The notes under the pieces: model-generated
Seen by the model: the letters and a program-made list of their open reading frames with translations, nothing else
What the model was told of the DNA's origin: nothing
Databases searched by the model: none
Assembly: GCA_002256025.1 (NCBI GenBank)
Contig: NKIB01014326.1
Span: forward strand, 1-44,714
Source of the DNA: Asterionella formosa
Lineage: Eukaryota
Direction of reading: 5' to 3'
Length of the DNA: 44,714 nt
Position numbers and translations under genes: made by a program
Shown: piece after piece, positions 2,215-44,714 of the stretch
Numbering within the stretch: the stretch's first letter is position 1
How the letters are laid out: each line of letters begins with the position of its first letter

Positions 2215-2397
2215 GCAAGTTGCAGTAATTGTCATCTTTATCCCATATTAAATTGTTTGTTAAAGCAAAATGACCGCAACTTGCAGGTACCAGGGTACCC
2301 TGGTACCTGTGGTGCAGGTAATTTTGCTCAAACAAAAGATTTAGCCATCTTTATCCGAGATTAAAATGTTAGTTAAAGCAAAATGACCGCAACTTGC
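2215..2397. mobile_element. Two adjacent copies of an ~90-bp MITE-like repeat (2215-2284 internally deleted; ~2313-2397)
   Basis: Both end ATCTTTATCC..ATTAAA.TGTT.GTTAAAGCAAAATGACCGCAACTTGC. Left ends resemble the inverted GCAAGTTGC(G/A)GT(C/A)ATTTTGCT. Related copies lie at 17194 and 19108. Confidence 0.65.
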
Positions 2398-2587
2398 ATT
2401 GCTAGTAATAGTTAGTCTACCTGGTACCTGGTACCTGGTACCATCCTCATACACCTGAGAAGAACATTTAGCTTAATTATTTTGTAAACAACGTGTTTTA
2501 ACGGACCTTCCAGGGCAAATGTGCGTCATCTGCCAGCACCATCATCAGTCAGCAACGAAAGCAAGACAAGAATCTGGGAGGAGGAGT

Positions 2588-2850
2588 ATACCGGTATACG
2601 ATTTGGCAGTTCTGGTACTAGCTGGTAGTACCTGGTGCTCGGAGTACCAGGCAATATGGCGCAGATGCCACCAGGTACTGGTACCTGGTAACTGGTAGCA
2701 GCTGTGTACCTGGCACCGGTACTGGTATGGTACCTGGTACAAGGTACCAGTACAAGCGACGTATCAGGAAAATGCATAAATCATGATAGTATTCACACAC
2801 GAAAGGAATGATACAAACAGATCGCACTACCGGTACCGGTATACTAACAG
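2588..2850. repeat. Cluster of GGTACC/CCWGG (TA-CCWGG-TA) short repeats upstream of the peptidase; similar clusters at 2285-2310 and 2417-2442
   Basis: Repeated ggtacctgg, ggtaccagg and taccggta words read directly from the sequence. Confidence 0.8.
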
Positions 2851-6969: not shown

Positions 6970-7133
6970 TTTCTCTTTCTAGCTGTTTTGTTGCGATGAA
7001 GTAAATATAAGGAGTTCACTTTGCTGTCTATTGTCAATCAACAATCATGTACGGTATGATTCTTTGTGTATCGGTGTTATGGATATCGCAAGCAAACCTA
7101 AATTACATAAAATTATTTTGTATATTAGGAGAG

Positions 7134-7185
7134 TACCTGTTACCTGGTACCAGGTCCTGCAGTACCTGGTACATGTACCAGGTAC
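7134..7185. repeat. GGTACC/CCWGG repeat cluster
   Basis: tacctgttacctggtaccaggtcctgcagtacctggtacatgtaccaggtac. Confidence 0.75.
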
Positions 7186-7910
7186 GTTACACATGCGTAT
7201 TTTCTCACTATTGATGGGACCTCCACGTGTTCAGAAATAGTGGAGGAAGGCAGGGGAGCGAAGTAAACTAACATGGAGCAACTGCGAGCTCCTCAATTTT
7301 TATTATCTGTAGACGGTCGTACGAACACAAGTACAGTTCCGGTATCATTGTCACAATTTTGTCAAAGCACCCAGCAAAAGTAGCGGTTCGAGTAGCACTA
7401 TCAAAGTGATCCTCCACAAAGCACTGGTACCAGGTACCGGTAGCTCACCACGGGCGGAGGTTAATGTATATTTATGTTTATATGTACAATCAAATAATTC
7501 CATTTCAGTGCCACCATATATCATATGTAGCTGGAATGTTGCAACCTGAAGATCAACATCGTTGGATACGTTGGCCTTGGTATGGAGTTTGTTTGCATTT
7601 AATAATCATCTAGCAAATCGAAAATAGTTTCTATCAATAATAGAAAAAAATCAATGATAGAAATTTTTCCCAACTAAAAATCGAAATGACTCTTTTTTAC
7701 TAAAAAGAAAATCGAAAAATATGAAAAAGGTTTGTATTATCATTGAAATCAACAGTTTATTGGTTGGCTGGGTTTAGCTTGCTTCATGACATACTGGTGG
7801 TACTCAGCCACTGGAATATAATGTCATACATAGATGAAGGATTTAAATTAAATTTTAGAGTACGTTAAAACTAAGCTCATAATCGCACTAGTGCGTTTTA
7901 GACACAGAGG

Positions 7911-17193: not shown

Positions 17194-17283
17194 GCAAGTT
17201 GTCGTAACTTTGCTGCAGATAAATATTTTGTTATCTTTATTCGATATTGAATTGTTTCTTCAAGCAAAATGACCTCAACTTGC
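17194..17283. mobile_element. ~90-bp MITE-like copy upstream of the GPCR
   Basis: Imperfect ~21-bp TIRs GCAAGTTGTCGTAACTTTGCT ... AGCAAAATGACCTCAACTTGC. The interior is similar to the copies at 2215-2397. Confidence 0.65.
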
Positions 17284-18266
17284 TGGTACCTGGTACCGGG
17301 CACACCTGACACTACATGGTACCAGGTACTTGGATGCTGTCATACAAGTTCCTTCTGTAAATGATGTGAAAACATGATTCTACAGAGTCATTGGAATCTT
17401 GTTATTTAATTAAATTGATATATATATACTTAGCTATTTTATTTGTTGCCGGTGCTCCAACGATCGCTCCTTCACAACAAAACAACACAGTCGGAATATA
17501 AAGGGATGTGCGATTGCTTTATGACTCTATGATTATCTCGTATCTGTGCGGCCCTGCTGGAACATCACAAGAATCCATGCGGAACCATCAAATTTGTTCA
17601 AAGCGTCGTACCGGTACTCCTTCCCGCATGCGGGTATCTTCTTCTTACGTAGAACTTACCTGTTGTACAGAACTACTTATACCTATCTTTGCTAGCCTTC
17701 TTGCTAGTTTTTGCTATTGCCCTTTCTCTGTCCATTCTCACTGTTTCTTAAATTAATTAGCATACTCTAACACCTAGTTTCAATCCCATTTATCACACTT
17801 GGAGAAACCTTTTTTGGTGTTTCCTTTACGCTAATGCTAACCTTGGTCTGATTGATCTGAAACATCAATATCATTAGCTAATTTCTTGACATGGGAATGC
17901 TCAATTTGATTCATTGGAATGTAATAAAGTCCACAATTCTCGTATCTCACAATAGTCATCGATACTATATTCTTTACAAAATGTTACAGTGTAAAGCTTA
18001 AAGAATGATTCTCATATGTTTTGGCCTTCACTGATGCTACCAGAAGTAATAAATGCTGATCATGGCTGACACAGCTATTACTTGCTTCTTTTTCATCTGC
18101 CAGCAGTAATGCTCTAGTCTAACTAATATTTCTGTGTCATTTGAGAATATGCATGTTATTTACACATACTGTTGCCTAGCTAGTATTGTACAGGCCATAG
18201 GAAATGACTACCAGCAAGCAATGTTGTAAACTAGTCTACCAGTGTACTGGTACCTGGTACATGGAA

Positions 18267-20957: not shown

Positions 20958-20964
20958 TGGGGGG

Positions 20965-21005
<41 letters not shown>

Positions 21006-21052: not shown

Positions 21053-22100
21053 GGAATCCTAGGGACCACATGAAAAAGACAGGTGGAGAATGCATGAATC
21101 GAACCCACCACACCTTTGAATGCATGCTAACTAACTAAGCAACCCCCCTTAATACTCATGAATATAATTTATATAATAAGCTATCTCGTTGATTTATTGA
21201 AGTACCAGTTGCTAGGAGAGTATAGAGTACACCCAGTAGTAGGAGCGAGTTAGTTGAGATCCTTGCAGAGCTTTGATGGACCATACCAACCGTTTGAGAT
21301 TGCCATGTCATAGTACAGCTCTGAATTTGCTAAATGGAACACGAAAATTTTCCCAAAAATGTCCTGCTTCCCATGTTGTCATGCCAAAATGTGAAATTCT
21401 CTTTTTTCACCAACATAAGTCTTGCCTTGACACTTGAGGTCATTTCATTCTTTTTTTGCTTAGCCAATGTTGTTAGTTGCAGATTGCTGAATCCGTGCTT
21501 GTTTCCTCTCTCAGATTGCTTGAACTAGCAACTTGTCCTGGAATAGCTACCAGTTCATTTCGCAATGCAGCTGGTTATTTATATAGAACATTTTAATTAA
21601 GCTAAAATTATGTTGGACTGGTAGCTACGATGGCTACCCAATGTAGTTTCATGATGCATCAAGCCATACAGTTCTACATGAAGAGACTATAGTGAATGTA
21701 CTCTAATTATGTATGCACTCATTAAAAATAAACGTTAGGTTGCCGGCGCAAGTCACAATCTAGCTAAACCAATAGAAATGCTCCTTTTATTTGGCTATCG
21801 TCGGAGTCTTATCAACCTAATACCTGATATTTGGTCGATAAGGGGGTCATCCTCGACCAGCAAGACCAAAGCATATTTGGTCTTGGTCTCGATACAGTGG
21901 CTAAAATATGTTTGCTTTTTCGACCAACACAACGCATCATTACGTGTATAGACCTGCATTTTCAATTGGCTTGGTATTTGGTCGATGCGGTGGCGATGGT
22001 CTACCAGGTAAGACAGGGGAGGGGACTGGTGAGTCAAGGCTCAAAATCCATTTCATATTGTTCTGGTGTCCGAATCCCAGTCGTAAAAACGACTGCCTGG

Positions 22101-22557: not shown

Positions 22558-22582
22558 GGGGACGTGAGACAGCACGTATGAG

Positions 22583-27221: not shown

Positions 27222-27256
27222 AGTGGAAGATATTGATGGTGTTTTAGCAGAAGAAG

Positions 27257-27271
27257 CTTGGGCTCATAACC
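27257..27271 (-). promoter_or_regulatory. Primer-binding site complementary to the anticodon arm of initiator tRNA-Met (half-tRNA type)
   Basis: Minus-strand GGTTATGAGCCCAAG directly follows the 5' LTR; compare the Drosophila copia PBS GGTTATGGGCCCAG. Confidence 0.85.
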
Positions 27272-27720
27272 AGCGAAGTGCTAGAACAAACACTTGAATG
27301 AACAGGAGAGATCAATGATCTCGAGAGTAAAATTGCGAAGAAGCGATAACAAGTCGAATAAACTGAAATTATGATGTTAAAACTAAGTTGAGACGAAAAA
27401 GGTAACCTTGGTGTAAAGGACTCTGAAAAGGTAGAAACAGAGTAGGGTAGTACTTGTGACTTGATGTGGGAGAGTAGAGTCTACACAACATGAATTCAGC
27501 TGCTGTAGCTCTCCATATCCATTGTCGTAGAACGAGGACGCGACCTAAAGGAACGAGGTCAAGCAAGGAATTCACACTGGTGAGTGTGTGAATGAGGGAA
27601 GAATAGTGGTGAGCATGTAGATTTTGTAGTAAGAAATGTACGAGAGCAATAGTCTTTTCGGGACCAGTGTTATCTGTGCCTAGCTAACTGGCACTAAGGC
27701 ATAATAATCGGGTCACGGCT
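27272..27720 (-). repeat. 5' LTR (449 bp)
   Basis: Direct repeat of 22101-22548. Confidence 0.95.
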
Positions 27721-28522
27721 CCTGGCATACAGGTATGTATTACACCATCCGCGAGCAAAGAACAAGGGTCGTGCATTCGCTCCTCTATCTGGATGGCGTA
27801 CGAGTGGTACTTCTGATCTACCGGGTAACCACCTTAAATGTATTATTTGCATTGCCCCTGCATCCGAGTCGTCTGTCGCGACGACAAAACCGGATTAGAT
27901 GTCGATTCTTTTTGCGCGTGCCTATCCTTATGTAGCTACTATATAAATTTTTTAACATTAAGTGTTTATTTTATTACTGTTCCTCCTTCCTTCAGAAAAG
28001 ATGCCATGTTGAAGGAATTGGCTGCATGCATTGATCAGATATGTACGTGTGACTACCGGTATCATAGTTTCAACCCGAAAACAACCTCCTATTTATTATA
28101 CATATGCAAAAAGCTTGCCAGGTAGATGTGTACCAACCACAATCATGCCATCCCAGCAACATGTTCTGTCATTCACAGTACATATTAAATGTACTAGAGC
28201 TTTATTTGCTACCTACCAGTATATATTACTTCTTAATCCTATGAGGATGTAGGAAGAATAAGTTCAGGATTTGCTGCACTTTTTCTGCCTTCGCTAAAGG
28301 TATCTATCACGTGCTACACAGTGCCACCGATGTTCGGGCAAAATATAAACAGAGCTTAATTTTCATCCTACATACGTATAAATATATGTTCAAATACATG
28401 GATCACATAGGAAATAGGAACTTCACATAGAGCCGTGCGACATCCTTCCGCATCACTCTTTATGCTGTTACATTTATGTAACCTACCGTATTGCATCACA
28501 CTTTCCAATTGGACTCGAGCAA

Positions 28523-29194
28523 ATGGACGACGAAACGACCATCAATTTACTGGAAGCCATGAATCACAGCAATAATGGCGTGCGGCTCGTTGAATTGGGT
28601 AGACATGCGGAAGCACGAAAGTTTTTGCAGAGTTCGATAGATTTGATTGACCGCTATTTGTCCGGTGATGAAGCGTCCCATAGTGAGCATCATGATATAA
28701 CCGACTTCTTCATGTGGTCAGAGCCGTTTAATCTTGCTAGCGACAAAGCGATCCATGCCTTTATTTACCGAGCGGCGGTTGTGTTCAATGAGCCGAGGGA
28801 TCTAACTCTCCCCCTGCCACGAAATTGGATTAGGCCAATCAGCATCGCCATTACTTTCAACATGGCACTTCATCTCCACACAGTTGGACTTTGGAAACTA
28901 TCGGCACAAGATGCTGAGCGGGCCATTGCGTTGTATACAGTAGCTCTACATGGGTGCTCGGACAACACAAACCCAATGTTACGAGTGGTCATAATGAACA
29001 ATCTCGGTGTGTTGCACTACACCGAATTCGTTGACTATGCCTCCGCTCGCGCTTGCTTCGTACAACTATGGGACTATCTCTTGTTACTCCAGGGAGGAGG
29101 ACGATACGAACGCTACATTCTGCCTGAAATAAGAAATCACCTCAACATGAACATGGTTTTATTGGTACCACCCTCAGCTGCAGCTGGCGCCTAA
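28523..29194 (+). CDS. TPR-like protein of a diatom-expanded family, 223 aa
   Basis: Motifs NNGVRLVELGRHAEA, FIYRAA, FNMALHLH, AIALY..AL, MNNLGVLH and C-terminal N..L...SAAAGA. Confidence 0.75.
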   Translation: MDDETTINLLEAMNHSNNGVRLVELGRHAEARKFLQSSIDLIDRYLSGDEASHSEHHDITDFFMWSEPFNLASDKAIHAFIYRAAVVFNEPRDLTLPLPRNWIRPISIAITFNMALHLHTVGLWKLSAQDAERAIALYTVALHGCSDNTNPMLRVVIMNNLGVLHYTEFVDYASARACFVQLWDYLLLLQGGGRYERYILPEIRNHLNMNMVLLVPPSAAAGA

Positions 29195-29491
29195 CAGCAA
29201 GGTTTGGTTACAGTGGTTCCATGTTTCATGGACATACCACACAGAGAGTAAATTTCTGACGTTTTTGTTTATCTAGTTAAACGAATACGCCGAATTCATT
29301 CATTATGGTATTCAGTGATCCTAGTCACACAGCCCGACACCTCATCAGTCAAGTTCTTTGCAAACTTTCATGAAAACTATGTAGCATATTATTATTGAAA
29401 GCTACATACTCTGACACGTTGCATAGGCATATTATTGACTTTCTAGTGTTACTAATTCCGATAGTTACCCTACTACTAAAATAATAATATC

Positions 29492-32164
29492 CTAGTCGAC
29501 CTGCATATGATCGGAGACATCTCCTGGCGTATTTTCTTGTGCAGGCTCAGTTTCCATGGGTTGCGGTCCCTCAGAAGGCTTTGCTTCTTGCTTCTTTTCC
29601 ACTTCAGCAGGCTTCTCTTCCTTCTTAGGCTTAGGAGCTGGCTTGTTCTTGATAGGACTACAAACATCAGTCAATTCCTGACTCTTACTACTGATCTCGG
29701 CGCAAGTGACCGCAGGGTCCACACTGTTTGACAACGATCCTTGCTTGTCCAACATTTCATACATCCAACTCGACACTTCGTCACACTTGGAATGACACTT
29801 TTGTCTCTCATCATCCGTGATATGGGAGTACTTTGCGTCAGTCTGAGATTCATTGAGCCACGCCTTATACATTTCCACCTTCCTCTGTAGAGTGGACACA
29901 GCATTGGGGCGACTAGCAGCCTCGACTGATCGTCGTTCGATAGGTGTGCCAATCTTCTTCAATGCGGACAACTTGTCAAAGTACACAGATTTGACGGCAT
30001 CGAACCCGTCTTCATACAGCCAATTCTCTGTTGCCTCGAGGGTCACTGAGAAAGACGATTTCTCTGCATCGGTAGAATAAGGACCAAGGTGAATGTCAGA
30101 GCTGATCTTGTCCCTCATGTCATAAATATATGACTCAAGTTCGTTGCGCATGTCAGAAGTTTCACGAACAACTCGGTCGGCATTAGCCATGGAAACTTCA
30201 GCCTCAAATGCTTTCTCAATCTCAGGTTTTGTCCAATCTAAAGGACGAACTGTCGTGAATTCTAGGTTAGTCTTCTTCAATTTCTTTTTCTTGTCGTCTC
30301 CTTCCTTCGCCTCAGTATCGGGTACTCCCTCGTCGTCGACTTCTTCCACCATTTGCGCAGAGCTCAAATGGATGATACCATGTATGTCTTCCTTTACATT
30401 CACGCGAACCTTCTTCTCGGAGCCTTCGCTTGCCTTGATCTTAAAGGTACATATTTCACTTGAAGATGCTGCGTTTCGGCCATAAAATGCTGATTTTTCA
30501 TCGTAGGATACATTGACTTGAAACTCGCCTGATCTTCGAAGTGTAACACGTCGAACAATGGGGAACGACAAACCACGGTCAAACATGATGACCGAGTTGG
30601 CCGGCATTTCGGCACCATCAGCAACACCCTCAATTTCGACGCCCTGTTGAGATGATCCCTGTGTCTCTTCATCCCAAGAAACTTTGATTGGGTAGGGCTG
30701 GGCTTCAAGGATTTCATACGGGAGAACCTTGAAACGTGGTGAGAGAATGGCACTTTGAAGAGCAGCTCCACGAGCAACTGCTTCGTCGGCGTTCATTGTA
30801 GTAAATAGAGTCATTCCCCCGAGAAAGTTTGAAATGGTTCGTTTGACTGATCCGATACGGGTGCTTCCACCGACGATCTCGACACTAGACAGGGTGGACG
30901 GCTGAAGCTTCGCCTCGGCCAAGGCCAATTCGATCGGTTTTATCAAACGATCCAATAGTGGCTTACACATGACTTCGTATTCCTCTGCTGTTAAGGTTCC
31001 ACTGTAGTCAAAATCGTCCATCAAACATTCCAGGTTAATTCTAGCCTCGCTGACACCTTGGGGACTGAGCGTTTTCTTGGCCTTTTCGGCAGCAGCGAAA
31101 AGCTTGAGAGCAACTTTCGGACTTTCCATGGGACTACCGCTAAGCTTCCCTTTATGTTTTTCTTCAAACTTATTGGCAATCCACGAAGCAATGAGGTAAT
31201 CGAAGTCTCGCCCGCCCAGAGTTTCGTCGAAGTACGTCGACTTGACTAGTAGTTTTCCCGTTTCAAAAGCGACGATCGACACAGTGTAGCACGACGCTCC
31301 AAAGTCGATGAACATGACGTTTGTTGGTTCGTCCTTTTTGAACTCCTTATTGAGATCCTTGAAGATTCCATACGACAGGGCAACGGCAGTGTGCTCATGC
31401 ATCAAACGCTGAACACCTTTAATCCCAGCCATTTCGCACCCAACAACGAAGGCTCGTCTCTGAGAATCCGTGAAGTAACTAGGAATAGCAACGACCCAAT
31501 CCTGCGGAAAAAGCTGCTCCACGGTCTTGAAATCCTTTGCATCAATATGCGTCGAGGAAGCAGCGGCCTTTTCAGCAGCAATCATTCCCAGGTGCTTGAC
31601 CATCATCCCAGCAATCGCTTCGATGGTAACGACCATGTCTTCTCCATTGAGACACACTTTGACCCCGATCGAATCAGGTCCCCCCATGGCACGCTTCACA
31701 GGAACGCAAGAAAAGTATACACGCTTCATCTCCGCTTGCGCTCTGGGGTCATCAAAGGCCAGACCAATGAGGCGCTTGATGTTGACGACAGTGTTCTTGT
31801 AGTTTGATGTAGCTGACGTAGCCGCGCCTTCTCCCATGGTACGAGACTGGTCGAAACCAACCATAGTTCTATTGAGTAGTAAAGCGAGACATCATAGTGG
31901 GTCAGTGAAGGTCCTTGGAAGCGTCATTGTGGGACGAGGCGCATCGAGTAAAAAAGGCAAGAAACAGGCCGAGCACGCAAAAACAGTACCACGAGCTACT
32001 GGGACGAAATATTCTCGGCAGTTCCATGGATTTCGAAATCTAGTAACCATCACTTACGGATTCAGACGATTGGAGTTTCCATTGAGGATAACATCGACGC
32101 CGCCGCGGCCAGCAGCAGCGATCACGGAGTGCTGGAGACCAAAGTCAATGCCTACAACGCTCAT
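29492..32164 (-). CDS. Hsp110/HSPH-type Hsp70-family chaperone; exons 32164-32058 and 31868-29492
   Basis: Exon 1 MSVVGIDFG...GGVDVILNGNSNRLNP is joined by the GT-AG intron 32057-31869 in frame to TMVGFD. Motifs LGGRDFD, VEIVGGSTRI, NADEAVARGAALQSAILSP and RNELESYIYDMR. Confidence 0.95.
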
Positions 32165-32510
32165 ATTTATCTATTGCTTCGACTGCAAAGATGCAATATT
32201 TCGATGAGGAGATGTTTTGTGAATGACGGACAACCATGCGACTGATGGCTGATCTGATTGTTCATATCCTACATACAGATCGGAGAATGATGCTAGATGC
32301 TGCTGCATAGAGTACTGTTACCAGGTACTATGTGCTTATGTACCTGATAGTATCATCTCTCGCTGTATGTAGACTGGTTCAAATCTCAGTGTCATTACGG
32401 TATACCAGGCAACAAGGCAGTCGCGGTTTTTTTACGGCTCGCCCAGCAGCGAGGGCGAGAAAATGGATAACCGGTTTCCATACCCTTATAAACCTGGTGG
32501 AGGACCATAC

Positions 32511-32547
32511 GTACCAGGTTACGGTACCAGGTACCTGGTACCTGGTA
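32511..32547. repeat. GGTACC/CCWGG repeat cluster upstream of Hsp110
   Basis: gtaccaggttacggtaccaggtacctggtacctggta. Confidence 0.8.
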
Positions 32548-33203
32548 GCCACTCTTGAACGGAGTCTGTAGGCCTCTGGCTTTCGAGAAAGATCTAAATA
32601 ACAAATAAATATACCGGTGTTTATCATGGATTCTGAGAAATTCCATTTTTCTACATACATACCGGTAGTAATAGTAGCAGCCAGCATTCTAAAACATGAC
32701 TTGATGTAATAAATGGATCTTCGGCCTTTTCAAATACTACCTGTTATCTACCTACAAGATACGCACCAGGTCCTATATCGCTGTACGGTTTGCAATGATT
32801 GGACATCATCAAGAGATAGAGCTAAAGAACCCCATGTTCCGGGTCGCTACTAACAACGGGAAGAACATACCGTTTGAGCCTGGCAAGACAGTCTCCTCTT
32901 CGCAAGCTCAAGACTTGAGGACCGGTAGCCTGAGAGCTGGGAGTGTATACCGTAGCTCAAGTTAGCACAATTCTTTTTCCTAGCCTTGTAGTAATCACCG
33001 GTATTTCATATTTTAGAAGAGTAGTGCACTACCGGTAGTGTTAGTGCAGATAGCAGCAAATGATGACCACTGCCGAAAGTATTGATTCGTTCCATTTAAA
33101 ATCGAAGTTGGCTGATGCGAAGTACAGTTACTATCACACCACTCCTACTCCCAAATCTGAAATCGTCTAATCAATAATCTTTACCATAGCGTTCATTAAT
33201 GCT

Positions 33204-34727
33204 CTACTCGTTATCCTCAATAATACGTCCCTTGAATTGATCCTTCGTAGCTCCACACTCAGGACACTGGAAACCTGCTCCATAAAACTTGCTTTCACGT
33301 CCTTGTGCAATAAAAATAGTGAATCCACAGTTTCCACATTCATAAATGTTGTTTGGGTCGTCTGCCGCTTCATCTTCTCCAGATGCTTTTGCCTCAGCTT
33401 TATCCTTCTCATCCGTTAGGTTCCCATCAGCATCTATCTTACGTCCCTTCTTATCGTACATCTGATTTTGGTTGCCATACATCTTTTCAGTATCTGACAT
33501 GAAGCCCTTGTTTCCTTCCTCCTCGAAAATTGTTATTGCAGTCTTCTTATCCAGGCCCAATAGTTCCCAACCACTAGTCAGTGACTTTTGATTCTTTCCA
33601 GAGAGTTGGACAGTTGATCGGTAGGCGGCCTCAGCCATGGCTCTATAGTGATGTGAGAAATTGTCAGTTTCAACGAATTGCCTGTATCGAAAAACATATC
33701 ACACATTTGTTTTCGTTGTAACTCACTGTTGAGAAACCTCGACGATGTGTTCTGCATTAATGCCATCTCCACGGTATGTAGCCATTATCATATCTCTGAC
33801 AGGAAGCAAGGCAGCCTTTCCTTCCTTAGACTTGAGGATGCGAGACCCAAAAAAGTATAGCTTTCCGGCAGTAGAAATCTTATCTTGGCCCAATTGTTTG
33901 CACAAAGATACTAGTATGTTGGCAGCTTTTTCTTCTGAGAGACCAAAAATCTGAAAGACATAAGACATGGAGCTATTATGTACAGCGACAAATCAGGTGA
34001 GCCACAAAATCATCAACAACAGCTGTTGTACATATAAGAATTCGTTCTCCGCCTACCTGATTGCTTTAGGTGTAACAGTCTTCTTCTTGGCATACATTTC
34101 CAAGTACGTTTTCAGCATGGCATCGTTTCGTTTAGGTCCCAACCACAAAAGACGAGCTGCATAGTCTTTTTGACACAATTTCATTTCCTCAAAGTCCCCA
34201 TCATTGTAAACCATATCATTGGCAAATGAATTCAACAATTCATCAGCATTTCCTTCCAGCTTGGTGGTTACCTTCCCCGTCACAAATCGGAACGCAATGG
34301 TCCCGACCACAGCAGGAACCGCCAAAGTCCACAAAATTTCTTGCAAATCAGCCTGTTTGATCCATTCCACTACCCCGTTGGAGGAGGATTTCTGTTGAAA
34401 GGTGGTGATCTTGCCAACTTCTTCCCCATATTCGTCCGCTTCCACTGTTTCACTATCAGCCATGAAATCTTCGTCAGTATAACCGTCGTCCAAAGCTTCC
34501 TCTGAAGTCACTATCATACTACTTGTCAATTTCACCTGCTCGCGTGGTAGCAAGGCCTTGCGGGAACGCGGTTGTTGGTGAACAGCTTGCTCTCCCAAGA
34601 GGTAGTCAAACTCATGAAGATTGGCGAAAAGTGGAACGGACTTTCTCGAAAGAGATACCGACGGCGCAAAACCTTCTGTAGCTGCCAACAGAGTGAGAAG
34701 AGCGATTGCATGGGACGATACTCTCAT
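33204..34727 (-). CDS. Plastid-targeted membrane protein with C-terminal rubredoxin-like CxxC/CxxC domain, ~451 aa; exons 34727-34057, 33972-33727, 33642-33204
   Basis: Signal peptide plus ASAFAP-like motif (MRVSSHAIALLTLLAATEG/FAPS) and a TM segment (ILWTLAVPAVVGTIAF). Two frame-preserving GT-AG introns. C-terminal YECGNCGFTIF...FQCPECGA. Confidence 0.85.
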
Positions 34728-35050
34728 CGTGCCTATTTGCTTGCTCTGTGTTTGCAGAAAGAAATGGGGAATGAAGAAAATGGACAATGGTGGCTGATGT
34801 TTTCGTGCCTTCATACATAACACTGTGTGACGAAAATTTGACAAGTAATTATAGTATAGTACAGTACTGCAGTACAATACCCGTAACTGTTCATTCCATA
34901 TGCGGCACGAGCGATGGGGGATGCATGGTTGCAGATCCTCGTTTCGTTCCAGGTGGCAGTGAAGGTCCGGGTACATACAGCATAGTATTTATTCCGGTAC
35001 CAAAGTCTATGCATGATTCCGTAGTACAACATCTACCCCATCCTCAGCTG

Positions 35051-35695
35051 CCAGGTTCCTGGTACCAGGTACCTGGTACCTGGTGCCCTTATACAATATG
35101 TATGTACCTACGTAGTCGACGTACACTCTCCATACCGGTAGCGTACTGTACGACTTTTTATTGTTGCTTCCTTGCTTGCTCCTGGTCCGCGAACCATGCC
35201 CTGCTGGGTGAAGAATCCCTGTGGATTTGCCCCACTGAGAATACAAATCATTTACAGTATATACCGGTACCGGTTTGACAGTTGAGTTTTGTATGGACGT
35301 GAGATGTGAGTAATGCGGTATATAGTAAAACGAGCAAGCAAACCAAGGGGCCATGCTGCTCCCAAACATGTATGTACCGGGTATGTAGGTAAGAATGCAT
35401 TTCTTCCGGACCTCACATCATGCAGTACCGGTAACAGTTGTATAGAACTACCAGGTACCAGGTACCAGGGACCAATACAGGTACTCCTTGGCACTCCGCA
35501 CGACGGACCGTATATGGTGGGCGGTTCAGCAAGGACCTGGTACCAGGTACCAGGGTAACAGGTAGAGTACATACCAGGTACCTGGCACCCTCATAATTAC
35601 GGGTAAATCATAGCTTTGTATGTACCGGTAATACAGTACAGACGAGCGATAATTCTAAGTTTAGCTACCAGGTACCGTACCGAGTACCGGTAATT
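35051..35695. repeat. Dense GGTACC/CCWGG/CCGG repeat clusters in a divergent intergenic region
   Basis: Examples at 35051-35084 (ccaggttcctggtaccaggtacctggtacctggt), 35448-35470, 35536-35586 and 35667-35692. Confidence 0.8.
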
Positions 35696-36058
35696 TATAC
35701 CTTTACACTCTCTATATTTGCTTCAAGTATGTGGCACTCCGTGCTTGGATCAGGTAATGGTGCGGTTTGTACCATGTTCTACATGGAACGAATAATTATC
35801 GATCCCATTCTCTAAATTGGCGCTACATGGCTGCCGGTTGTATCTAAACGGACGTTCAGAAAGTTCATCACATCGTCCAGAATAGTTTGGTCGACTATTA
35901 CATGCTTTACTCTCCAGCCACAAGGGTAAAGTGCCAGTAGGTCTCGGATAAGGAACGAGAGAGAGGGAGAGAGCGAACGCAACGAAAACCCACCACCGAA
36001 AGGGAGGCACCACGGGCAGTCAAGTCACTTCAACTGTCTTTGTGTTTTGCGGCTCGAA

Positions 36059-38957
36059 ATGAAGAGGGCACTGGCGCAGCGAGCCAAGGAGAGTGGTCAT
36101 CCCAATGGATTAGCACCAGCGGTGGTCGCTTCGAGTGGACAACCTCCTCAAAAGCTAGCGAAGGTGGACCCGACAGAAGATACACACCGGCTAGCCGCCC
36201 CATCCTCGTTGTTGTCGTTGTCGGCACTGCCCCCTGTTGTAGTGTCTATGCCTTCGCCTCGTGATGCTCCAAAAAATAGCAGCTCCAATCTCAAGACTTC
36301 CATGAAACGCCAAAGGTCGACCGCGGGCTCGGATGATGAGGACGACGAAGATCAGTCTGCATTTTATCTGAAACATCAGAATGCAGCACTGGCGTCGGAA
36401 CTCAAGCAGCTACAGTATCAGTTTCGTCTGATGGAGAAAGAACGAGATAGTAGAAGAAAACAGTGCCATGCAGCGAATCAAGCTCTACAAGCTCTGGAAT
36501 CCACTTGGACGCAAATGGAAGTGGCTCTACAATTGGGACAGCAACCTCCGGAAGAATCGGTGCGTGACAACGGTGAACACGTGATTTTTGCTGCTTATAA
36601 TTTATTTATTTAATTCATATCATCGAGAGCCTTTGCTAACCTCAATTATTTCAAACAACGCACCGCAGTTACGGGAGTTAAGCTCACTAAATGGAACACA
36701 TCTATCAGAAGACATGCCAAGAAGTACAGGAATTGGGGAATGTGTGGAACTCATTGGAGCTTTACTAGATGCACTTGCAGCGCTGGGGGGCACGAATCAA
36801 GGAGGAGATCTGAACGACATGACTCGGATAGCAAAGGCCGTATCAGCTCGTGCAACGGTTCTGCAGCGATGGATTTGGAGCTTGCTCAGGAAAGTTACCT
36901 CTGGTGAAGAAATCAGCAATGCAATCTTTGATAATGCCGCATTGGAAGGTCAAATATCAATTCTCAAATCCAAATGCCGGGACTATGAAGCGCAAATAGC
37001 TGAGTTGGTCAAGTCTAGGGATGATGCAGCTACATCGGATCGAAGAGTCCGACGAGGCCTGTATCGATTATCGGCAGGTCGGATGACCCTGGCGGACGTT
37101 ATAAAAGCTGTCGACGATTCAGACAAGGATGGGACGGCAGCACTCATGGCGCTGGAAGAAGCAATAGAAACGCCGATTTTGACTGCTTCAACGGTGGCAG
37201 CTGTCAATGACGGTGATGTCGTTGATAGTACACATGTTGCTGTACTAAAGAAGCAGCTGCAAGATCTCGAGGAAATTGCAGCTGCTCGGGAACAGCAAAT
37301 TGAGAAGGTACGTGCTCGCTTTCTTGGAATTTCAAAGCTATCGATTTTTTCTATTCCTTACTTTTTTGGTTCGTTGCTACAGTTGGTATCGGAACGAGAG
37401 GAACATATGAAACGAATTAACTCTCTATTGCTCCCGAACGACACAAAAAGAAATCCAGAAGAGATTTCCGACGAAGAAATTAAGCGATCTGTTTTGTACT
37501 CTGAATTGTCCACAAAATTATTAACATCAGAACGGCAGTTGCAGGAAATGCGTACGAAGCTGGAAAAAACTAAGCATGAATGGGCTATCGCAAGAGGAGA
37601 TGCTGACTTTGCAACAAAGGGTCTCGAGGAAAATCTCGCAAAGTATAGAAAAAGATGGTACGAGCTTACTGGCAACGAAGCGAGTGAAAACGGCGGCAAT
37701 AACAACGCTCCTGACGATGCAGTTGTTCAAGCTAAGCGAATTATTGAACTGGAACATAAGCTGAACCAAGCTCTCGAGAACGTACGACAAGCCGACACTG
37801 TTCGCGATTCACTTGACACGGCTATCTCTATGAATGAGGCACTGACTGTTAAGGTCGATCAAATGAAGGCCAAGCATTTGGCTGAAATTGCTGGTGTTGG
37901 AAAGAATATTTCACCGCCCTTATCGGCCTTGCAGTCCGCCGCGAAGGAGACACCAAACAAGGACAAGGAAAAAATAGGGATGTCGACACCCTTACCAGAT
38001 GCCAACAAGGCTGAAAAAATGCAGAGGGAACACCGTAGAATGCGTAAAGAGCTCGAGGTAGCCAGGGCAAGCAAGGAATCTGCAAGAGCAAAGCAAGAGG
38101 TGAGAGAGAATTTTACAAAAATTAGCACATGCGTTGTTTTATCTAAGCTCAAACTGTTCCTTGCATAATTATTTCAGCGCGCCGAAAAGGAGCGTGATTC
38201 TCTGATGAAAACTAATCTGGGACTGTTGCAACAAAGCTCCGAGAAGGATGATATGAATGCAAAATCTTTATCCACCATTTTGCACTTGAAGAATTTAACG
38301 GAGAAGTTAACGCAAGAAAAGGATCTTTTGGAGTTGCAAATGAAGTCTTCAGAACAAATTCAATTGGCTGTTAGGCTGGCCACGAATGCTCGGGAACGAG
38401 TAATGGAAGAATCTTTAAAGGAAAAGAATGAACTTCAGGATTTGATTGACGCTCTCAACGAAGATTGCGAGTCTCTGAAACAGATCAAAGAAGTTGCCGA
38501 GGGGAATCTCGCCCGGAAGAATGCAGAAATGTCAACATTAGAGGAGTTGGCGCACAAGGCCAAAGAACGAAGCGATGAGCTCGTGTTGGAATCAACGAAA
38601 CAGGAAGAAGACAAGCGTGCACTTCTCGAAAAGCTAGCTATAGCTCAACGAGATGCTGTGGAAGCATCCAAGCAATGTGCAACTCTACGTGCTCGCCAGC
38701 TTGCGGGTGCTGGTAGTGGGGACGATGGCGGGTCGTCTGTGTTTACAACTGATCAACTCACTACTCAAATCTCCGTCTTGAAGAGTCGCCTGGCGTGCCC
38801 TGTATGCAATCATCGTGATAAAAAATGCATTTTGTTGCGGTGCCGGCACATGTTTTGCAAACAATGCATTGACGAGACTGTACGCAACCGCTCTCGAAAA
38901 TGCCCAGCATGTGGTCAGCGTTTTGATACCAAGGATATTGGCGATGTATGGCTGTAG
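36059..38957 (+). CDS. BRE1: BRE1-like E3 ubiquitin ligase (histone H2B monoubiquitination), ~878 aa; exons 36059-36559, 36669-37307, 37383-38099, 38178-38957
   Basis: Long coiled coil with NLGLLQQSSEKDDMNAKSLS and a terminal C3HC4 RING (CPVCNHRDKKCILLRCRHMFCKQC...RSRKCPACGQRF...DV). Three phase-0 GT-AG introns join the ORFs. Confidence 0.9.
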
Positions 38958-38988
38958 AATGGGTAAAGACCACTATTAGGTTCTTTCG

Positions 38989-39405
38989 CTAGCCTATTTT
39001 CCTTTCTAAATCTGCGATCGATGCATTGAGCGAAGCCAACGCAACCGTTTTTGTCTCAACATCGTCTTTATAAACAGGAATTCCATTCGCATGGAAAGCT
39101 CCTCCACTATTGTAAATCGTTTTCAGTATCCTTCGACTTCGTTCAATATGGGCCACCAAGAGCTGCTGCAATCTAGGGTGGCCAAGCTCAATCGTTTGCA
39201 ACTGTCTCAGATCTGACTGGACTTGTTGCAGTGATGATTGCAGATTGTCCAGGTGGGCATGTAACTTGAGTGAAAAAAGTGCTGTTGTTCGTTTCTCTTC
39301 AATCAAAGCATTCTGGATGCGGGTCTGAGCATTGCAATACGTTTCTAAATTTCGATATTGTCGATGGAGAAGGCCTAATACACCACTATCGTGCTGCACC
39401 GTCAT
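38989..39405 (-). CDS. Hypothetical coiled-coil protein, 138 aa
   Basis: ATG-initiated helical ORF ending 31 bp from the BRE1 stop. No recognised domain. Confidence 0.55.
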   Translation of the reverse strand: MTVQHDSGVLGLLHRQYRNLETYCNAQTRIQNALIEEKRTTALFSLKLHAHLDNLQSSLQQVQSDLRQLQTIELGHPRLQQLLVAHIERSRRILKTIYNSGGAFHANGIPVYKDDVETKTVALASLNASIADLERKIG

Positions 39406-39486
39406 GATGCGAGCAGATGTTCTAACTGTATCGGGAGGAGTCTAAAAACGAAATAATAATGAGGATTGATTCACTCCTTGGTTTTG

Positions 39487-39685
39487 ACCAGGTACCCTTG
39501 GTACCTGGCACTCTATACAGGGAGTAAGTACCGGTACTACTGATGTTTTGGAACAAAAAATCCATTGAATGACTGACCAGGTACCAGGTACCAGGTAACC
39601 TGGTACCGGTAGTCTTTCAGAATTACTACCGGTGGTAGCTATGATAATTCTCTGCTAGCTAATACCGGGTACCTGTACCAGGTAG
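39487..39685. repeat. GGTACC/CCWGG repeat cluster in a divergent intergenic region
   Basis: accaggtaccaggtaccaggtaacctggtaccggta and neighbouring copies. Confidence 0.8.
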
Positions 39686-39923
39686 TCGAACGCACACCAG
39701 TATGGAGATGGTGTAGCGAAATCACGGTGTCTATTATGCACACAGGATAAGCAATGTGTGAAATCGAAGAAAGACTTAAAAATTTGCTCCATAATATAAT
39801 AATGAAACTGCCTCATCTGTCTCGTTCATTTATGTCACCATAGACCAGTGAACTTGCACCTTTGAACTCAAGCAGTCATTCCCTCATTCTCCCAGTCAAT
39901 CGTGTGGTTGAATTTGCCTCATC

Positions 39924-41214
39924 ATGATGCCTCCCCAAGTAACTCTTGAATCTCAGAGTAATCGCCAGACCCCCGCTCTTCCTCGCGACGTTTGTCAGAA
40001 GGCCGCAAAATATGCTGTAAAAGTTTGCCATGAAGCTTCTAGCTACAGCAAATTGGATGGAAGTAGCGATAGTATCGCGCTCTTTGAGAGGGAAGAAATT
40101 GTTGTCGGAGATTTGCTTGGTAGTGGAGGATTCAACAACGTTTTTGAGGTTACGTCCGTCCAACTCAACGAAGGAGGCGGTCGTCATGTCAAACTGACAT
40201 CGACACAGACTCAAGAGCTAGCTCGAAAGTCAGTGGCCAAGAGAGGAAAAAATCCAGAGGCCCTAGCCGTGAAATTTCTCAACGAGCATGCCATGGCAAA
40301 TAGCGAAGATTATTGCAATGGTGCAGCAGATTTATTACTTGAAGCTCGCTATCTTTCATTACTTGCTGGTTATCCGCATCCACACTTGATTCGATTGCAT
40401 GGTATTGCAGCTGCAGGCGCAAATGGATTTTCAGAGGGTGTCGAAGCAGGGTATTTTTTGGTACTCGATCGGTTATATGATTCATTAGACAGGAGATTGG
40501 AAATATGGAAAGAGTTAGAACGAAGGAAAGTCAATGGCATCGGCGAAAATCCTGATTTTGCGCTTCATTTAAAAGCACTCTTCCTTAAGCGTCTTATGGT
40601 AGGTTTGGACCTATGTAGCGCACTGGAGCATCTGCATAAGCTGAGGATTGTATTTAGAGACTTGAAGCCTGATAACGTTGGTACGTTGTGAATGATGGAG
40701 GGGATGTGGCGGTAGACCCTTCTTTCCTTGTATACTTACTCTTTTTCTAGGGTTTGACTTTGGTGGTGTACTCAAAATATTTGATTTTGGTTTAGCTAAG
40801 GAGCTAGATCCTAGGCAAAAGCAGCAAGATGGTCGATACAAAATGAGTGGAGCAACGGGCTCACGACGATATATGGCACCAGAAGTTGCACTATCGCAGC
40901 CATACTTCCTATCTGCTGATGTTTACTCATTTGGAATACTTTTGTGGGAAGTCTTGAGTTTTGAGAAAGCATATGGGGAACTTAGTGTTAACGAGCACAA
41001 GGAGGAGGTTATACAAGGAGATCGAAGGCCGAAACTCAGTAAGCGATGGTCACAGTTGCTACATAATTTATTAGATAGTTGCTGGCACAAGGATCCTCTG
41101 CAAAGGCCTCCAATGAAGCAGGTTGGCAAGTATATTCAGCAAGAACTCTCGGCTTACTCCCAGGCAAACAGAATTCCACTGCCTATTTCCACAATCAGAC
41201 GAGGGACAATGTAA
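39924..41214 (+). CDS. Ser/Thr (TKL-like) protein kinase of a diatom-expanded family; exons 39924-40680 and 40751-41214
   Basis: LGSGGFNNVFEV, AVK, FRDLKPDNVG/FD across the GT-AG intron 40681-40750, DFGLAKE, TGSRRYMAPE and DVYSFGILLWE. Confidence 0.95.
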
Positions 41215-43229
41215 CATCAAAGTTGAGATGTCTGGCAGGAGTTCATGAGGGTATCCTTTATCCCATCTAAGTATTCATTATGAATGAATTCAAATTGTGG
41301 AACTAACCAGGTAGATATGATTGTTTTTCAGCCATCCAGAGTTCTGGGTTGTGATAATTCTTGTTACCTCATCTATAGGAACAAGGTATTCAGTCTGCTC
41401 ATTCATTTTGTAGGATTTTCCTTTATTAGAAATAGTTTGAAGAAAAGAATAGCCTCCTATTTTGTAAAAACCGAAATCATTCCTGCCATATTTAGATCGA
41501 TCGCTAGAGTACTACAACAATGCTGTACATGCATGCACTTTTTGTTGGTTTTTCAATCTCTTGTGTTGCTACTTCTAAGGTGCAGTAGTGGGAGTTAGAA
41601 TGCTTTCGGTGAACTTCAAATAATTGTGCTCATGGTGATCGCATGAGTTACCAGTTTATATGTCTTCACCCCCTAAGGGATTGCCATGCAAAACGTCTCA
41701 CAGATTAATGGCAGTCAATTATTGACTGGTTGCTCCCCATTTTTAGAGTCCAATCGACAGGCAGGGTCCTTGCATTGCAAGGGATCACTGGTGGTAATTT
41801 CCTCCAGGTAAATACTGCATTTCTTGTCAAAGTAATGCCTTTGGTGTTTCGACTTGAGCCAAACTAGATCATTTATTGGTCTCTATCCGGTACTCAAGCG
41901 CCCTATTATATCGCTCAAGAAGGCAGCATCAACGTTCGTCAAATTCGTTTCACCAGAAGTTTCAATCGCTCACCAGGTGCAGTCATCTCAGAAATGTCAG
42001 CATATTGAAAGGTAGTGCTCCTCTCACAGCCACTTTTGACGGAACAATAAGGTTCGACCCAGATGGTGGAACTTTATCTTCTCCTGGGATGTTGTCGATG
42101 GCTGTGAGAATTTGTATATGATTCGAGATTGAAGAAACGTGATTGTGATTTCACGAGGTAATTTTTGACTGTGCTTGTTTGTACTCCACCATCAGTTTCA
42201 ATGAATTCTTCAGCTGTTGGAGGCACACATTGGCTGTTGCAGGAAACACCTTAATTCAACATGAGAACTACAGCAACTGACAGTGCTCCTAAAACCCTTC
42301 AAGATATCCCTAGTCTTAGAGATAGTAGCTACGATAAGTTCACTTAACACATTGGCATCCCTATTTGTCACAGACTGTTGGTAATAACTTGACTTAAAAA
42401 TCAGCTCAACGAAGTCCTCGAAATGACGAAAGATCACTAGGCTTAACAACGGTCATTGTATGAAAGGTTGAGCCACAATTGGTAAAGATTGACTTTGATA
42501 CCAACCCATCCAACCTGGAAGTCTGTCTATCGACGAGATCGTTGTGACGACTTCAAAGCGTATAACTATTTGGGAGAATCATTTGTTGACGGTTGATCTT
42601 GTGCAATTAAATCGTTATGTCTTCAATTCATGGTCACACGGTGGAAGTTAAAGCCACTCAATTCTTGTCAGGCCTAATACATGTATAGTTCCTAACTTTG
42701 TTTTGAATTTGACGAGTGTTTGCTAGCACACCTACCTTGCAAATCAACGGCTAGGCCTACTCAAAAACCGACAGCTTTGTCGTTGCTTTTAAGCGATTGT
42801 TCGCAACCATTTCAATGCGAAGAATGGGCAAGGGACCGTGTCAATCGACATCTAGATGTAAATCCGGTTTTGTTTGCTTGCAGAAGGTTACCAGCAACAA
42901 CGGACAAGACTACAATACCAGTCGATGGTGCATGCTTCCAAAAGAAAAGCCAAAGTGGAATGATTTTCCTTCAAGAATTGACCAGCTGGACACAAGAATG
43001 TCATCTACATGGCTGTGCAGCATTCTCCAATTGGGGATCACTTTCATTTCCAACTAGTACAGGGAAATAGCTCAATAGTAGAAACTGACTTTTCTATAGC
43101 TTATGACATGGTGGTAAGGCGCTGGTTTGTTGTGCCTACCCATTCGACTTCCTCAGGTCTCTACAGTAGATTTCATACTCTACCTTTTTTTGAACCTTAT
43201 CAGCAATCAATGACCCTACACATACAATG

Positions 43230-43720
43230 TGTTAAATTGTCTAGTTAAAATATCACAGATCTTACTTTTAAGATCTCTAAAGCTGAAAACGTATTTTCAC
43301 TTTACACTTTGTAATATTGTGAGCTTTCTGTTAATAGTCTATCTAGGTCTTGTTCTTGCCTGATTACTCATGTAATCCCGAACAAGACTTCTCACACTTT
43401 CCTTGATCTCGTCAAGAATGATCTTGCTTACTTTGACAATAAGTAAGCATATTCATTTGACAATAAGTGAACAGCACTTATTCTTTTGACAATAAGTGAG
43501 CATCTGATTCACTTGTCAATAAGTAACATCTCCAGTCATTTGTCAATAAGTAACATCTCCAGTCATTTGTCAATAAGTAAACATCTCCAGTCCAGTCATT
43601 TGTCAATAAGTAAACATCTCCAGTCATTTGTCAATAAATGTCGAAATGTTTTGGGTCTTGGTTTCTAATTACTACTTAGAATATTGATTCTCGATTCGTT
43701 GGATTCCATATATTTTATCA
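43230..43720 (-). repeat. Putative 3' LTR (~491 bp; distal end inferred)
   Basis: Starts TGATAAAAT right after the PPT. An imperfect inverted match TGTTAAATT lies on the plus strand at 43230. Confidence 0.6.
43430..43640. repeat. Minisatellite (~25-30-bp units) inside the LTR
   Basis: About 8 copies of TTG(A/T)CAATAA(G), the later ones as catttgtcaataagtaa(a)catctccagt. Confidence 0.85.
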
Positions 43721-44714
43721 CCCTCCCTGATCTCGAAACCAACAATCCATGGTCCCATTCATAATGTGGGTTGCATGAGTGTCATGAATTTTCTGAGTGA
43801 CATTCTTTGAAAGTAGGTCTGCAGGATTCTTTAAAGTATTCACATAGTCAACTCTAATATCCCCAGCCTTCACCTTTTCTCGAATGAAATGATATCTCAC
43901 ATCAATGTGCTTAGTTCGTGAACCAACCTGCTGATTCTTTGATAGAAAAATTGCACCTGTGTTGTCTTCTGCAATGATACTGGGCATTTCCACGTATTCA
44001 ACTTCATTGAGTAGATTCATTATAAACGTAGTTTCCTTTGATCCATCTGATAGAGCCACATACTCTGCTTCAGTGCTGGAAACAGTAACAATCTTCTGTC
44101 CTTTCGAAATCCAATTCACTAGCGATGCACCACCAATCGTGCCCAAATATGCCCTTGTCGATTTCCTTGTATCTGGATTGTCCCCAAATGAGCTGTCTAC
44201 CACGTCTTGAACTCGTAATTCATGTGGCGGTCTCATTTTTAATTTTCTGTTCCTTTCATCAGTTGCAATGAAACCTAACAAACGTTCAACAGCACTCCAA
44301 TGGGCATCACCTGGATTCTCTAAATGTTGAGAAAGTTCACGACATGCATTCGCGCATATTGGTCCAACTTTCTTCACAAAATACAACAATTTTCCAACCA
44401 TTGAACGATATTCTTTGTGGAGAATCACTTTGTCTGGATTCATTCTGAGAACAATTCCTGGAAATGCTGGGGTTGATGCATCTCTTGGCTACCTTCCAAA
44501 AATATCATGATAATCTTGTAGCATAACATGCACAAAATCCTCCATGCTCGACTCCAAGTAGCGTCCCACTTTATCTTGGCCCCAATTGTACCACACTCCC
44601 AAATGCTTCTTCAAAGGGCCAAGCTCCTTAATTGTGAAATGTTTCTTGATTTCATTTTTGAACCATTTAATATCATTTGGCTTTCCAGCAATTGCACAAT
44701 CATCGACATGTGTG

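What the first reader, a model, noticed from the sequence alone, without database searches (positions are those of the whole stretch)
35051..35695. Intergenic GGTACCAGGTACCTGG arrays parse as iterated TA-[CCWGG|CCGG|CWG]-TA units
Seen: irregular clusters occur at 2285-2850, 7134-7185, 7425-7442, 17284-17330, 18237-18262, 32511-32547, 35051-35695 and 39487-39685. They concentrate upstream of genes and in divergent promoters and are essentially absent from intact exons. Units mix CCAGG and CCTGG in either orientation, which simple slippage does not readily produce. Inference: each insertion at TA creates a new TA target, giving self-propagating arrays in open chromatin. This could be the same process as the micro-insertions in the Copia pol. 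Alternatives are a cis-regulatory or methylation motif, since the consensus fuses GGTACC and CCWGG palindromes.
Basis: partly seen in the sequence, partly recalled or inferred. Interest (0 to 1): 0.7.

Follow-up and report, generated by a model that had tools for sequence, protein, structure and literature searches.

The report
Self-renewing transposon scars in algal promoters
The short palindromic repeats upstream of genes in this alga are most likely scars left when small jumping elements land at a TA and leave again; each scar rebuilds the landing site those elements prefer, so the repeats can grow by themselves.

Summary
The clusters are real. TA-CCWGG-TA occurs 28 times in the window against 0.14 by chance, and its dimer 5,576 times genome-wide against 2 for the control. 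They sit upstream of genes (2.0/kb in divergent spacers, 0.07/kb in convergent ones, none in ORF bodies). The units have different sources. TA-CCGG-TA is a polarised insertion at ordinary TA sites and fits the CCG tips of young resident pogo elements. TA-CCWGG-TA fits two 4-base CCAG overhangs annealed over three bases. A TA-flanked family with fixed CCAG/CCAC tips exists (at least 280 CCAG ends); 78 of 100 ends follow GG and 24 of 100 follow a full unit. Each scar at GG-TA-CC makes two such targets, which gives a ratchet. A DD39D mariner and a CWG-duplicating MITE use the arrays but cannot write them. CWG is barely enriched, and the Copia micro-insertions are a separate signature. Not shown: a filled/scar/empty allele series, the family's transposase, or a clean 7-base strain polymorphism. 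The scan already noted these arrays, and CCAG-ended elements, on other DNA of this genome.

The parts
35051..35084 (.). Sub-cluster with two intact CCWGG units (35063, 35070) and degraded neighbours
35133..35275 (.). Scattered single units: CCGG at 35133 and 35262, CWG at 35144 and 35253
35375..35433 (.). One CCSGG unit (35375) and one CCGG unit (35426), both products predicted for CCG-tipped pogo ends
35449..35590 (.). Two sub-clusters: CCWGG units at 35449, 35456, 35541, 35572 and one six-base unit (CCAG plus GG) at 35548
   Evidence: no gaps here in run X7 record 21, and none unexplained from 35456 on in X2 record 5
35623..35695 (.). CCGG (35623, 35685), CWG (35632), CCWGG (35666); run X6 carries an extra 10-base TA-bounded unit behind 35676
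34053..34727 (-). Left flanking gene, divergent from the cluster; no Pfam match
   Evidence: start codon read from the sequence
36059..38957 (+). Right flanking gene, coiled-coil with C-terminal RING finger (BRE1-like; the name is recalled)
39488..39685 (.). Cluster upstream of a protein-kinase gene (ORF from 39912, +)
39529..39536 (.). TA-CCGG-TA unit that is a plain TA in runs X2, X6 and X7 (3 of the 3 runs covering it); direction of change not fixed
2286..2838 (.). Cluster upstream of a dipeptidyl-peptidase IV family gene (ORF from 2869, +)
2216..2283 (.). Shortened copy of the ~95-bp CWG-duplicating MITE (CAG on both sides), abutting the cluster
7133..7442 (.). Two clusters (7133-7185, 7426-7442) upstream of the minus-strand gene at 6055-6978
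17195..17282 (.). Copy of the ~95-bp MITE with CTG duplicated on both sides; it uses a unit centre as target
17285..17330 (.). Cluster upstream of a class C GPCR-like gene (14342-17035, -)
18244..18262 (.). Small cluster
22002..22010 (.). Isolated CCWGG unit at the end of a repeat; none of 11 sister copies has it there (their ends are followed by TTA or TAA in 10, TCA in 1)
   Evidence: the left end of the window copy was not found
32511..32547 (.). Cluster upstream of an Hsp70-family gene (29492-31891, -)

Best explanation
The arrays are stacked excision footprints of TA-duplicating cut-and-paste elements of the Tc1/mariner/pogo kind. (1) Shown: a resident non-autonomous family has fixed CCAG (older subfamilies) or CCAC tips, sits between TA dinucleotides, and lands mostly at GG-TA-CC, often beside an existing unit. 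(2) Inferred: excision leaves a 4-base 3' overhang CCAG on each flank. Annealing over three bases (C-G, A.A, G-C) and fill-in gives CCAGG or CCTGG at random, over four bases CCAG/CTGG, over two bases the six-base unit. (3) Follows from the sequence: a scar at GG-TA-CC leaves two GG-TA-CC targets, so sites that were hit are hit again and 7-base mixed-orientation clusters grow. (4) The scattered TA-CCGG-TA units come separately from young pogo elements with CCG tips (3-base overhangs pairing through CG); they seed half-targets. (5) Inferred: the upstream position reflects insertion into open promoter DNA. A DD39D mariner (at the TA junction) and a CWG-duplicating MITE (at the unit centre) use the arrays but do not write them.
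For: Empty-TA sister copies for 6 CCGG, 1 CCAGG and 1 CCAG insertions among 263 polarised insertions. Unit boundary is TA: when the base before the left TA is not G, the inner base stays G (28, 32 and 25 cases v about 3 expected) and does not copy it. Tip-free searches show fixed tips: 52 of 61 ends finish in CAG and 1 in CTG; 77 CCAC and 9 CCAG among 93 of 100 listed ends with TA in place. Homology starts at about the TA. 280 CCAG ends v 1 control; of the first 100, 90 follow G, 78 GG, 47 CWGG, 24 a full unit (hand counts); background TA sites 25%, 7%, 1.8%, 0.6%. Seven facing pairs of ends 0.75-3.5 kb apart among those 100 rows. Product spectrum fits CCAG tips: five-base 167 v 5.7, four-base 95 v 23, six-base 17 v 1.0, mirror six-base form 1; full 3+3 and 4+4 joins 0. 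Ends prefer CTGG over CAGG 31:16, predicting more TA-type than AT-type dimers; observed 1,500 v 1,002. CCWGG units cluster (56% within 30 bp v 15% for random TA). Pogo copies 97-98% alike with CCG tips and no GG preference (G at -1 in 10 of 29 ends), like CCGG units.
Against: No locus was seen with element, scar and empty alleles. No transposase was tied to the CCAG/CCAC family. Only one polarised CCAGG insertion and one unpolarised double unit were found. No clean 7-base presence/absence among the 12 of 35 indel rows shown for four other runs; the CCWGG units at 35449-35695 have the same length in X7, and from 35456 on in X2. A five-base core is longer than the 2-4 bases described for canonical footprints (PMC6943129, passages), so the 4-base overhang is fitted to the data, not measured. 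CCAC-specific products are not enriched, so the most numerous single subfamily counted would not write the units. Roughly 24,000 units (extrapolated from 400 kb of long contigs) face a few hundred surviving ends. The 55% same-orientation share (p=2e-14 v 50%) shows some slippage. No CCAG-tipped end lies in the window.
Confidence: 0.72

Rival explanations
1. A few seeds (scars or chance words) are amplified mainly by slippage plus fold-back template switching, which this quasi-palindrome invites; the transposons only favour the resulting sites.
For: 55% same-orientation dimers; strong clustering; fold-back about a TA gives the opposite orientation; the 39528 indel lies between two GTAC repeats.
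Against: Perfect runs stop at 3 units in 400 kb. 29 of 138 units have neither GG nor CC beside them. L019:487 and L009 are insertions with no matching unit in the flanks printed. The rival does not predict the 17:1 asymmetry of six-base units or the match to CCAG tips.
Confidence: 0.12
2. The word is a selected promoter signal (a protein-binding or nucleosome-excluding site) built by ordinary mutation, and several transposon families have evolved to target it.
For: About 30-fold divergent-to-convergent contrast; peak within 600 bp of the start codon, while TA-GC-TA shows no gradient; three unrelated families land on it; few decayed variants.
Against: Units arrive as whole insertions inside dead repeats, where no selection is expected. 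CCGG units show a similar upstream gradient yet different flanks. Spacing is irregular. The spectrum matches element tips. Later co-option as a promoter signal is compatible with the best explanation and is not excluded.
Confidence: 0.1
3. A host nuclease or domesticated transposase cuts at these TA sites and repair adds a stereotyped insert, without whole elements moving.
For: Units outnumber surviving ends roughly 50-fold; the genome has another stereotyped signature with no known source, a two-base duplication plus G/C; no transposase was found for the family.
Against: The insert equals the tips of a resident element family with the same target preference; a template-free enzyme writing CCWGG is not known to me.
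Confidence: 0.06

Closest known systems
Canonical Tc1/mariner excision footprints (Sleeping Beauty TA-C(A/T)G-TA; PMC6943129, passages read)
   Same: TA kept on both sides, core made of the element's terminal bases, central base either A or T.
   Different: Five-base core, implying a 4-base overhang with 3-base overlap; seen as tens of thousands of natural germ-line marks stacked upstream of genes, not single assay products.
Plant mariner-like elements and Stowaway MITEs (Osmar5, Ppmar2: 1-4 bases retained, PMC9632168; re-insertion at an old footprint in Triticeae, PMC1925063; passages read)
   Same: Up to four terminal bases retained; an element can re-enter the TA of an earlier footprint. 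A DD39D family with the Stowaway-type TIR start lives in this genome and targets the arrays.
   Different: The Triticeae case is one intron site with varied footprints. Here the scar is stereotyped and rebuilds the preferred GG-TA-CC target genome-wide. The DD39D family's CTCC tips do not give CCWGG.
pogo superfamily, Passer-type (PMC9976928: TA duplication, short TIRs, 0-4 bp footprints; PMC7386202: Passer in stramenopiles; passages read)
   Same: Resident DDE_1 elements with TA duplication and short TIRs; their CCG tips predict CCGG, CCSGG and CCG units, all enriched.
   Different: The footprint letters are in a figure I could not see; family placement was not tested with a tree; these elements carry a second 130-aa ORF.
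Microsatellites and unstable promoter tandem repeats (recalled, no call)
   Same: Short period, upstream position, some length variation between strains.
   Different: Near-random unit orientation, runs of at most three units, units appearing without a neighbouring copy.

Membership tests
Tc1/mariner/pogo excision footprint | Insert sits between two TA where sister copies have one TA | tested here: met
   6 CCGG, 1 CCAGG, 1 CCAG, 1 CCG polarised cases of 263; 39528 in 3 runs
Tc1/mariner/pogo excision footprint | Core letters equal the tips of a resident TA-flanked element | tested here: met
   CCG tips; CCAG/CCAC tips; product spectrum
Tc1/mariner/pogo excision footprint | Footprint sites share the element's target preference | tested here: met
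   CCWGG units G 74%, GG 52% v CCAG ends 90%, 78%; CCGG units 29% v pogo ends 10 of 29
Tc1/mariner/pogo excision footprint | Core of 2-4 bases as in described canonical footprints | tested here: not met
   Main unit has five bases; CCGG and CCAG fit. Needs a 4-base overhang, within the 1-4 range reported for plant mariners
Tc1/mariner/pogo excision footprint | Same locus seen with element, scar and empty allele, or excision observed | tested here: inconclusive
   One read-laying run on 12.7 kb, contigs only, 12 of 35 indel rows shown
Tc1/mariner/pogo (the CCAG/CCAC-tipped family itself) | DDE/DDD transposase between the TIRs | tested here: inconclusive
   No listed hit falls on the long candidates (C2330, C780, C1997); their DNA was not read
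Element with 4-bp GTAC target duplication and CAG tips | Both copies of the four bases vary together | tested here: not met
   Inner base stays G when outer is not; outer non-G 13 v inner non-C 3 at element ends, p=0.02
CWG-duplicating MITE as writer of the units | CCAG tips in inverted orientation with TA duplication | tested here: not met
   23 of 40 copies have direct CWG repeats, 0 of 40 inverted
Slippage microsatellite | Same-orientation units in long perfect runs | tested here: not met
   55% same orientation; longest run 3 in 400 kb
Cis-regulatory promoter motif | Enrichment upstream of genes | tested here: met
Cis-regulatory promoter motif | Protein binding or effect on expression | not testable with these tools
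   needs reporter, footprinting or chromatin data
Methylation target (CCWGG or GTAC) | Modified bases at the motif | not testable with these tools
   no modification calls available

The most novel reading that the evidence does not exclude
A transposon family whose excision scar duplicates its own preferred target has written a genome-wide promoter repeat by a ratchet, one unit per visit, so unit number and order record past transposition.
Probability: 0.55. Interest if true: 0.75.

Novelty: new variant of a known kind. Interest (0 to 1): 0.6.

Why it matters
It would be a route to repetitive promoter DNA that is neither slippage nor selection: a cut-and-paste element building and renewing its own targets. 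The scars would count past excisions, which surviving copies hide (about 50 or more per surviving end), and would give cleavage geometry without biochemistry. It also warns that a top-scoring upstream motif in such a genome may be a scar rather than a transcription-factor site. A site-preferring TA transposase could be useful if found. The ingredients, footprints and re-insertion at a footprint, are known; the scale, the self-renewing target and the shared use are what I did not find in print.

Tried and rejected
DDE_3 and Transposase_1 searches of G000 found nothing (the second rang in no control either, so it shows nothing). An IS630 profile gave only sub-threshold hits. Two apparent CCA-tipped MITEs from a de novo TIR scan were rejected: for one the left flank is shared between copies, for the other only three ends were held and no TA boundary was consistent. 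The ~95-bp MITE as writer: rejected, it duplicates CWG. The DD39D family as writer: rejected, its longer predicted footprints are not enriched. Five divergent DD39D loci and 68 metagenome relatives showed no CCAG tips where ends were visible. CCWGG as CpG decay of CCSGG: rejected, since the partner product CCCAG is not among the enriched five-base cores; CpG decay of CCGG probably explains part of the CCAG/CTGG class (G flank 39-46%, between 29% and 74%). Three-base CCA tips: disfavoured, as CCA is not enriched, the 3+3 join is absent and the six-base unit is unexplained. Prokaryote scan for the dimer: scattered single matches in the 80 of 108 rows listed, uninformative. Element-end scans: 0 in prokaryote genomes; 31 single matches in viral contigs, not examined. 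One search used a mis-spaced pattern and is void. A genome-wide count of the six-base unit was not obtained; its asymmetry rests on 445 kb. Literature: nine full-text searches found no description of these arrays or of a footprint that renews its target; the library lacks most subscription papers, and no figures or supplements were seen.

Full report
Setting. The window is contig C14326 of G000 (68.4 Mb, 15,436 contigs). Runs that hold it are mostly labelled algal, lake and freshwater metagenomes. Earlier notes call the organism a freshwater diatom; I did not test the taxon. The focal stretch lies between two divergent genes, a minus-strand ORF starting near 34727 and a RING-finger gene starting at 36059.

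Observation. The eight clusters are there. TA-CCWGG-TA occurs 28 times against 0.14 in shuffles, and its dimer 5,576 times in the genome against 2. In 400 kb from 11 long contigs, chosen because earlier hits showed them to be long and so not a random sample, the enriched TA-bounded cores were CCGG 168 v 8.5, CCWGG 139 v 4.9, CCAG/CTGG 89 v 21, a six-base core (CCAG plus GG, or its reverse complement) 14 v 0.9, CCSGG 12 v 2.2 and GC 170 v 61; CWG was only 77 v 53 (third-order Markov expectation). With genes called by an ORF and hexamer proxy, CCWGG units ran at 2.01/kb in divergent spacers, 1.02 in tandem, 0.07 in convergent and 0 in 162.8 kb of ORF bodies; CCGG at 2.44, 1.02, 0.35 and 0.02. 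Both peak within 600 bp of the start codon; TA-GC-TA does not. The focal interval holds 15 units covering 120 of 645 bases.

Are the units insertions at TA? An all-against-all comparison of 819 kb of loci gave 1,529 indel records, 263 of them polarised as insertions (at least two copies empty, at most half as many filled). TA-bounded ones included CCGG 6, CCAGG 1 (L019:487, four empty copies, flanks A and C), CCAG 1, CCG 1; CCGG was not seen between other dinucleotides. A double CCWGG unit differs from one other copy at L114:1764. Contigs of four other studies laid on 28000-40700 showed the CCGG unit at 39529 as a plain TA in X2, X6 and X7, a 10-base TA-bounded unit added behind 35676 and 7 bases fewer at 39633 in X6. 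Against: only 12 of 35 indel rows were shown, none is a clean 7-base CCWGG change, and the units at 35449-35695 have equal length in X7 and, from 35456 on, in X2. The array can also be read as GTAC-CWG-GTAC. That reading fails: when the outer base is not G the inner one still is (28, 32, 25 v about 3) and does not copy the outer base.

Two sources. CCGG units have near-background flanks (G before TA 29% v 25%) and cluster weakly; CCWGG units have G in 74% and GG in 52% and cluster strongly. The genome has 93 DDE_1 matches, including elements with CCG tips and TA duplication, many 97-98% alike, one with an intact 406-aa ORF. Their flanks show no GG bias. Three-base CCG overhangs predict CCGG (perfect CG pairing), CCSGG and CCG, all enriched.

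The source of CCWGG. The spectrum pointed to four-base CCAG overhangs, because only these give the five-, four- and six-base forms without the mirror six-base form (17 v 1, p=1.4e-4). I wrote this down as the search for such ends was under way. One search showed repeated ends after CCAG. Searches that left the tip free confirmed it: 36 of 61 ends are exactly TA then CCAG, 52 end in CAG and 1 in CTG; in a sister subfamily 93 of the first 100 of 127 ends have TA in place, 77 with CCAC and 9 with CCAG. Homology between copies begins at about the TA (43 matches scored from 296 candidates). A broader CCAG pattern gave 280 ends against 1 control, from a pattern that passes only part of the sites. 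Of the first 100, 90 follow G, 78 GG, 47 CWGG and 24 a complete unit, and seven pairs face each other 0.75-3.5 kb apart (flank counts by hand). Background TA sites follow a full unit in 0.6%. No member lies in the window, and no transposase was tied to the family.

Mechanism. Shown: tips, TA flanks, target bias, landing beside units, insertion of units at empty TA. Inferred: cleavage four bases inside the ends, annealing through CAG/CAG with an A.A mismatch resolved either way, as described for Sleeping Beauty with three bases (PMC6943129, passages); plant mariners retain one to four bases (PMC9632168, passages). A scar at GG-TA-CC yields two such sites, so the process feeds itself. One further check: ends prefer CTGG to CAGG 31:16, which predicts about half same-orientation dimers and more TA-type than AT-type; the genome gives 55% and 1,500 v 1,002. 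The excess over 50% is significant and leaves room for some slippage. The upstream position is put down to open chromatin; that step is untested, and use as a promoter signal is not excluded.

Users of the arrays. A ~95-bp MITE, with copies at 2216-2283 and 17195-17282, has direct CWG repeats in 23 of 40 copies and inverted ones in none. A DD39D mariner with Stowaway-type tips follows CWGG in 46 of 100 listed ends; its relatives include plant and oomycete proteins. Neither can write CCWGG.

The Copia. None of the window-side insertions listed is a CCWGG or CCGG unit. The short ones fit a general two-base duplication plus G/C signature. One LTR elsewhere (L009) has a CCGG insertion.

Comparison and novelty. 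It works like Tc1/mariner footprinting and meets three of the footprint features tested; core length departs from the canonical 2-4 bases, and direct excision and the transposase are open. Re-insertion at an old footprint is described for one Triticeae Stowaway site (PMC1925063, passages). Passages of PMC9976928, PMC7913693, PMC3660474, PMC7386202 and PMC8533490 gave background only; figures and supplements, which hold footprint and TIR letters, were not seen. Nine searches found no account of such arrays. The scan has many notes on this feature in the same genome (92 fitted); two that name CCAG-ended elements appeared only, after my counts. They are not independent support. Verdict: a new variant of a known kind; best explanation 0.72; interest 0.6.

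Noticed in passing
repeat copies in loci L002-L154 and the window: A general insertion signature: 47 of 55 polarised 3-base insertions that are not full duplications are a two-base duplication around one added base, G or C in 45 of 47, at many dinucleotides (TA only 14); 4-base ones add GC in 9 of 13 unambiguous cases. Source not found; it could be a G-tipped element with a 2-bp duplication, or end-joining with an added G.
   Followed up: partly
L179-L184; G000-wide: DD39D plant-mariner-like family (164 matches; triad spacing counted by hand) with strong target bias: of 100 listed ends out of 119, 78 follow G, 63 GG and 46 CWGG (hand count).
   Followed up: yes
L077:2393-2785; L179-L184: A 130-aa second ORF without Pfam match rides in both the pogo and the DD39D elements (152 matches); earlier notes call it HIRAN-like, which I did not test.
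   Followed up: partly
G000:C2330:15290-17550, C780:1240-4780, C1997:17293-20186: Facing CCAG/CCAC ends 2.3-3.5 kb apart: candidates for the autonomous element. DNA not read.
   Followed up: no
G000:C6897:156-587: Weak IS630-profile match (E 2.8e-9, below the cut-off) that does not coincide with the listed DD39D hits.
   Followed up: no
window 22101-27721: Copia element with LTRs 98.2% identical (22101-22549, 27272-27721) and a broken pol.
   Followed up: partly
window 21666-22001: End of a multi-copy repeat whose sister copies are followed by TTA or TAA, Harbinger-like by recall (472 candidates).
   Followed up: partly
window 7912-8016 and 20959-21052: Long G and C runs next to N gaps; similar runs in L089.
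   Followed up: no
window 10001-15000, 18001-20000, 43001-44714: CpG is scarce in repeat-rich kilobases (8-33 per kb) against 44-65 in gene-rich ones, as expected from CG methylation of repeats (inference).
   Followed up: no
window 11117-11436 and 43432-43637: Tandem repeats with 109-bp (3 copies) and 27-33-bp periods.
   Followed up: no
window 375-2023 and 43718-44488: Broken retroelement-like ORFs with no Pfam match for the three frames scanned.
   Followed up: no
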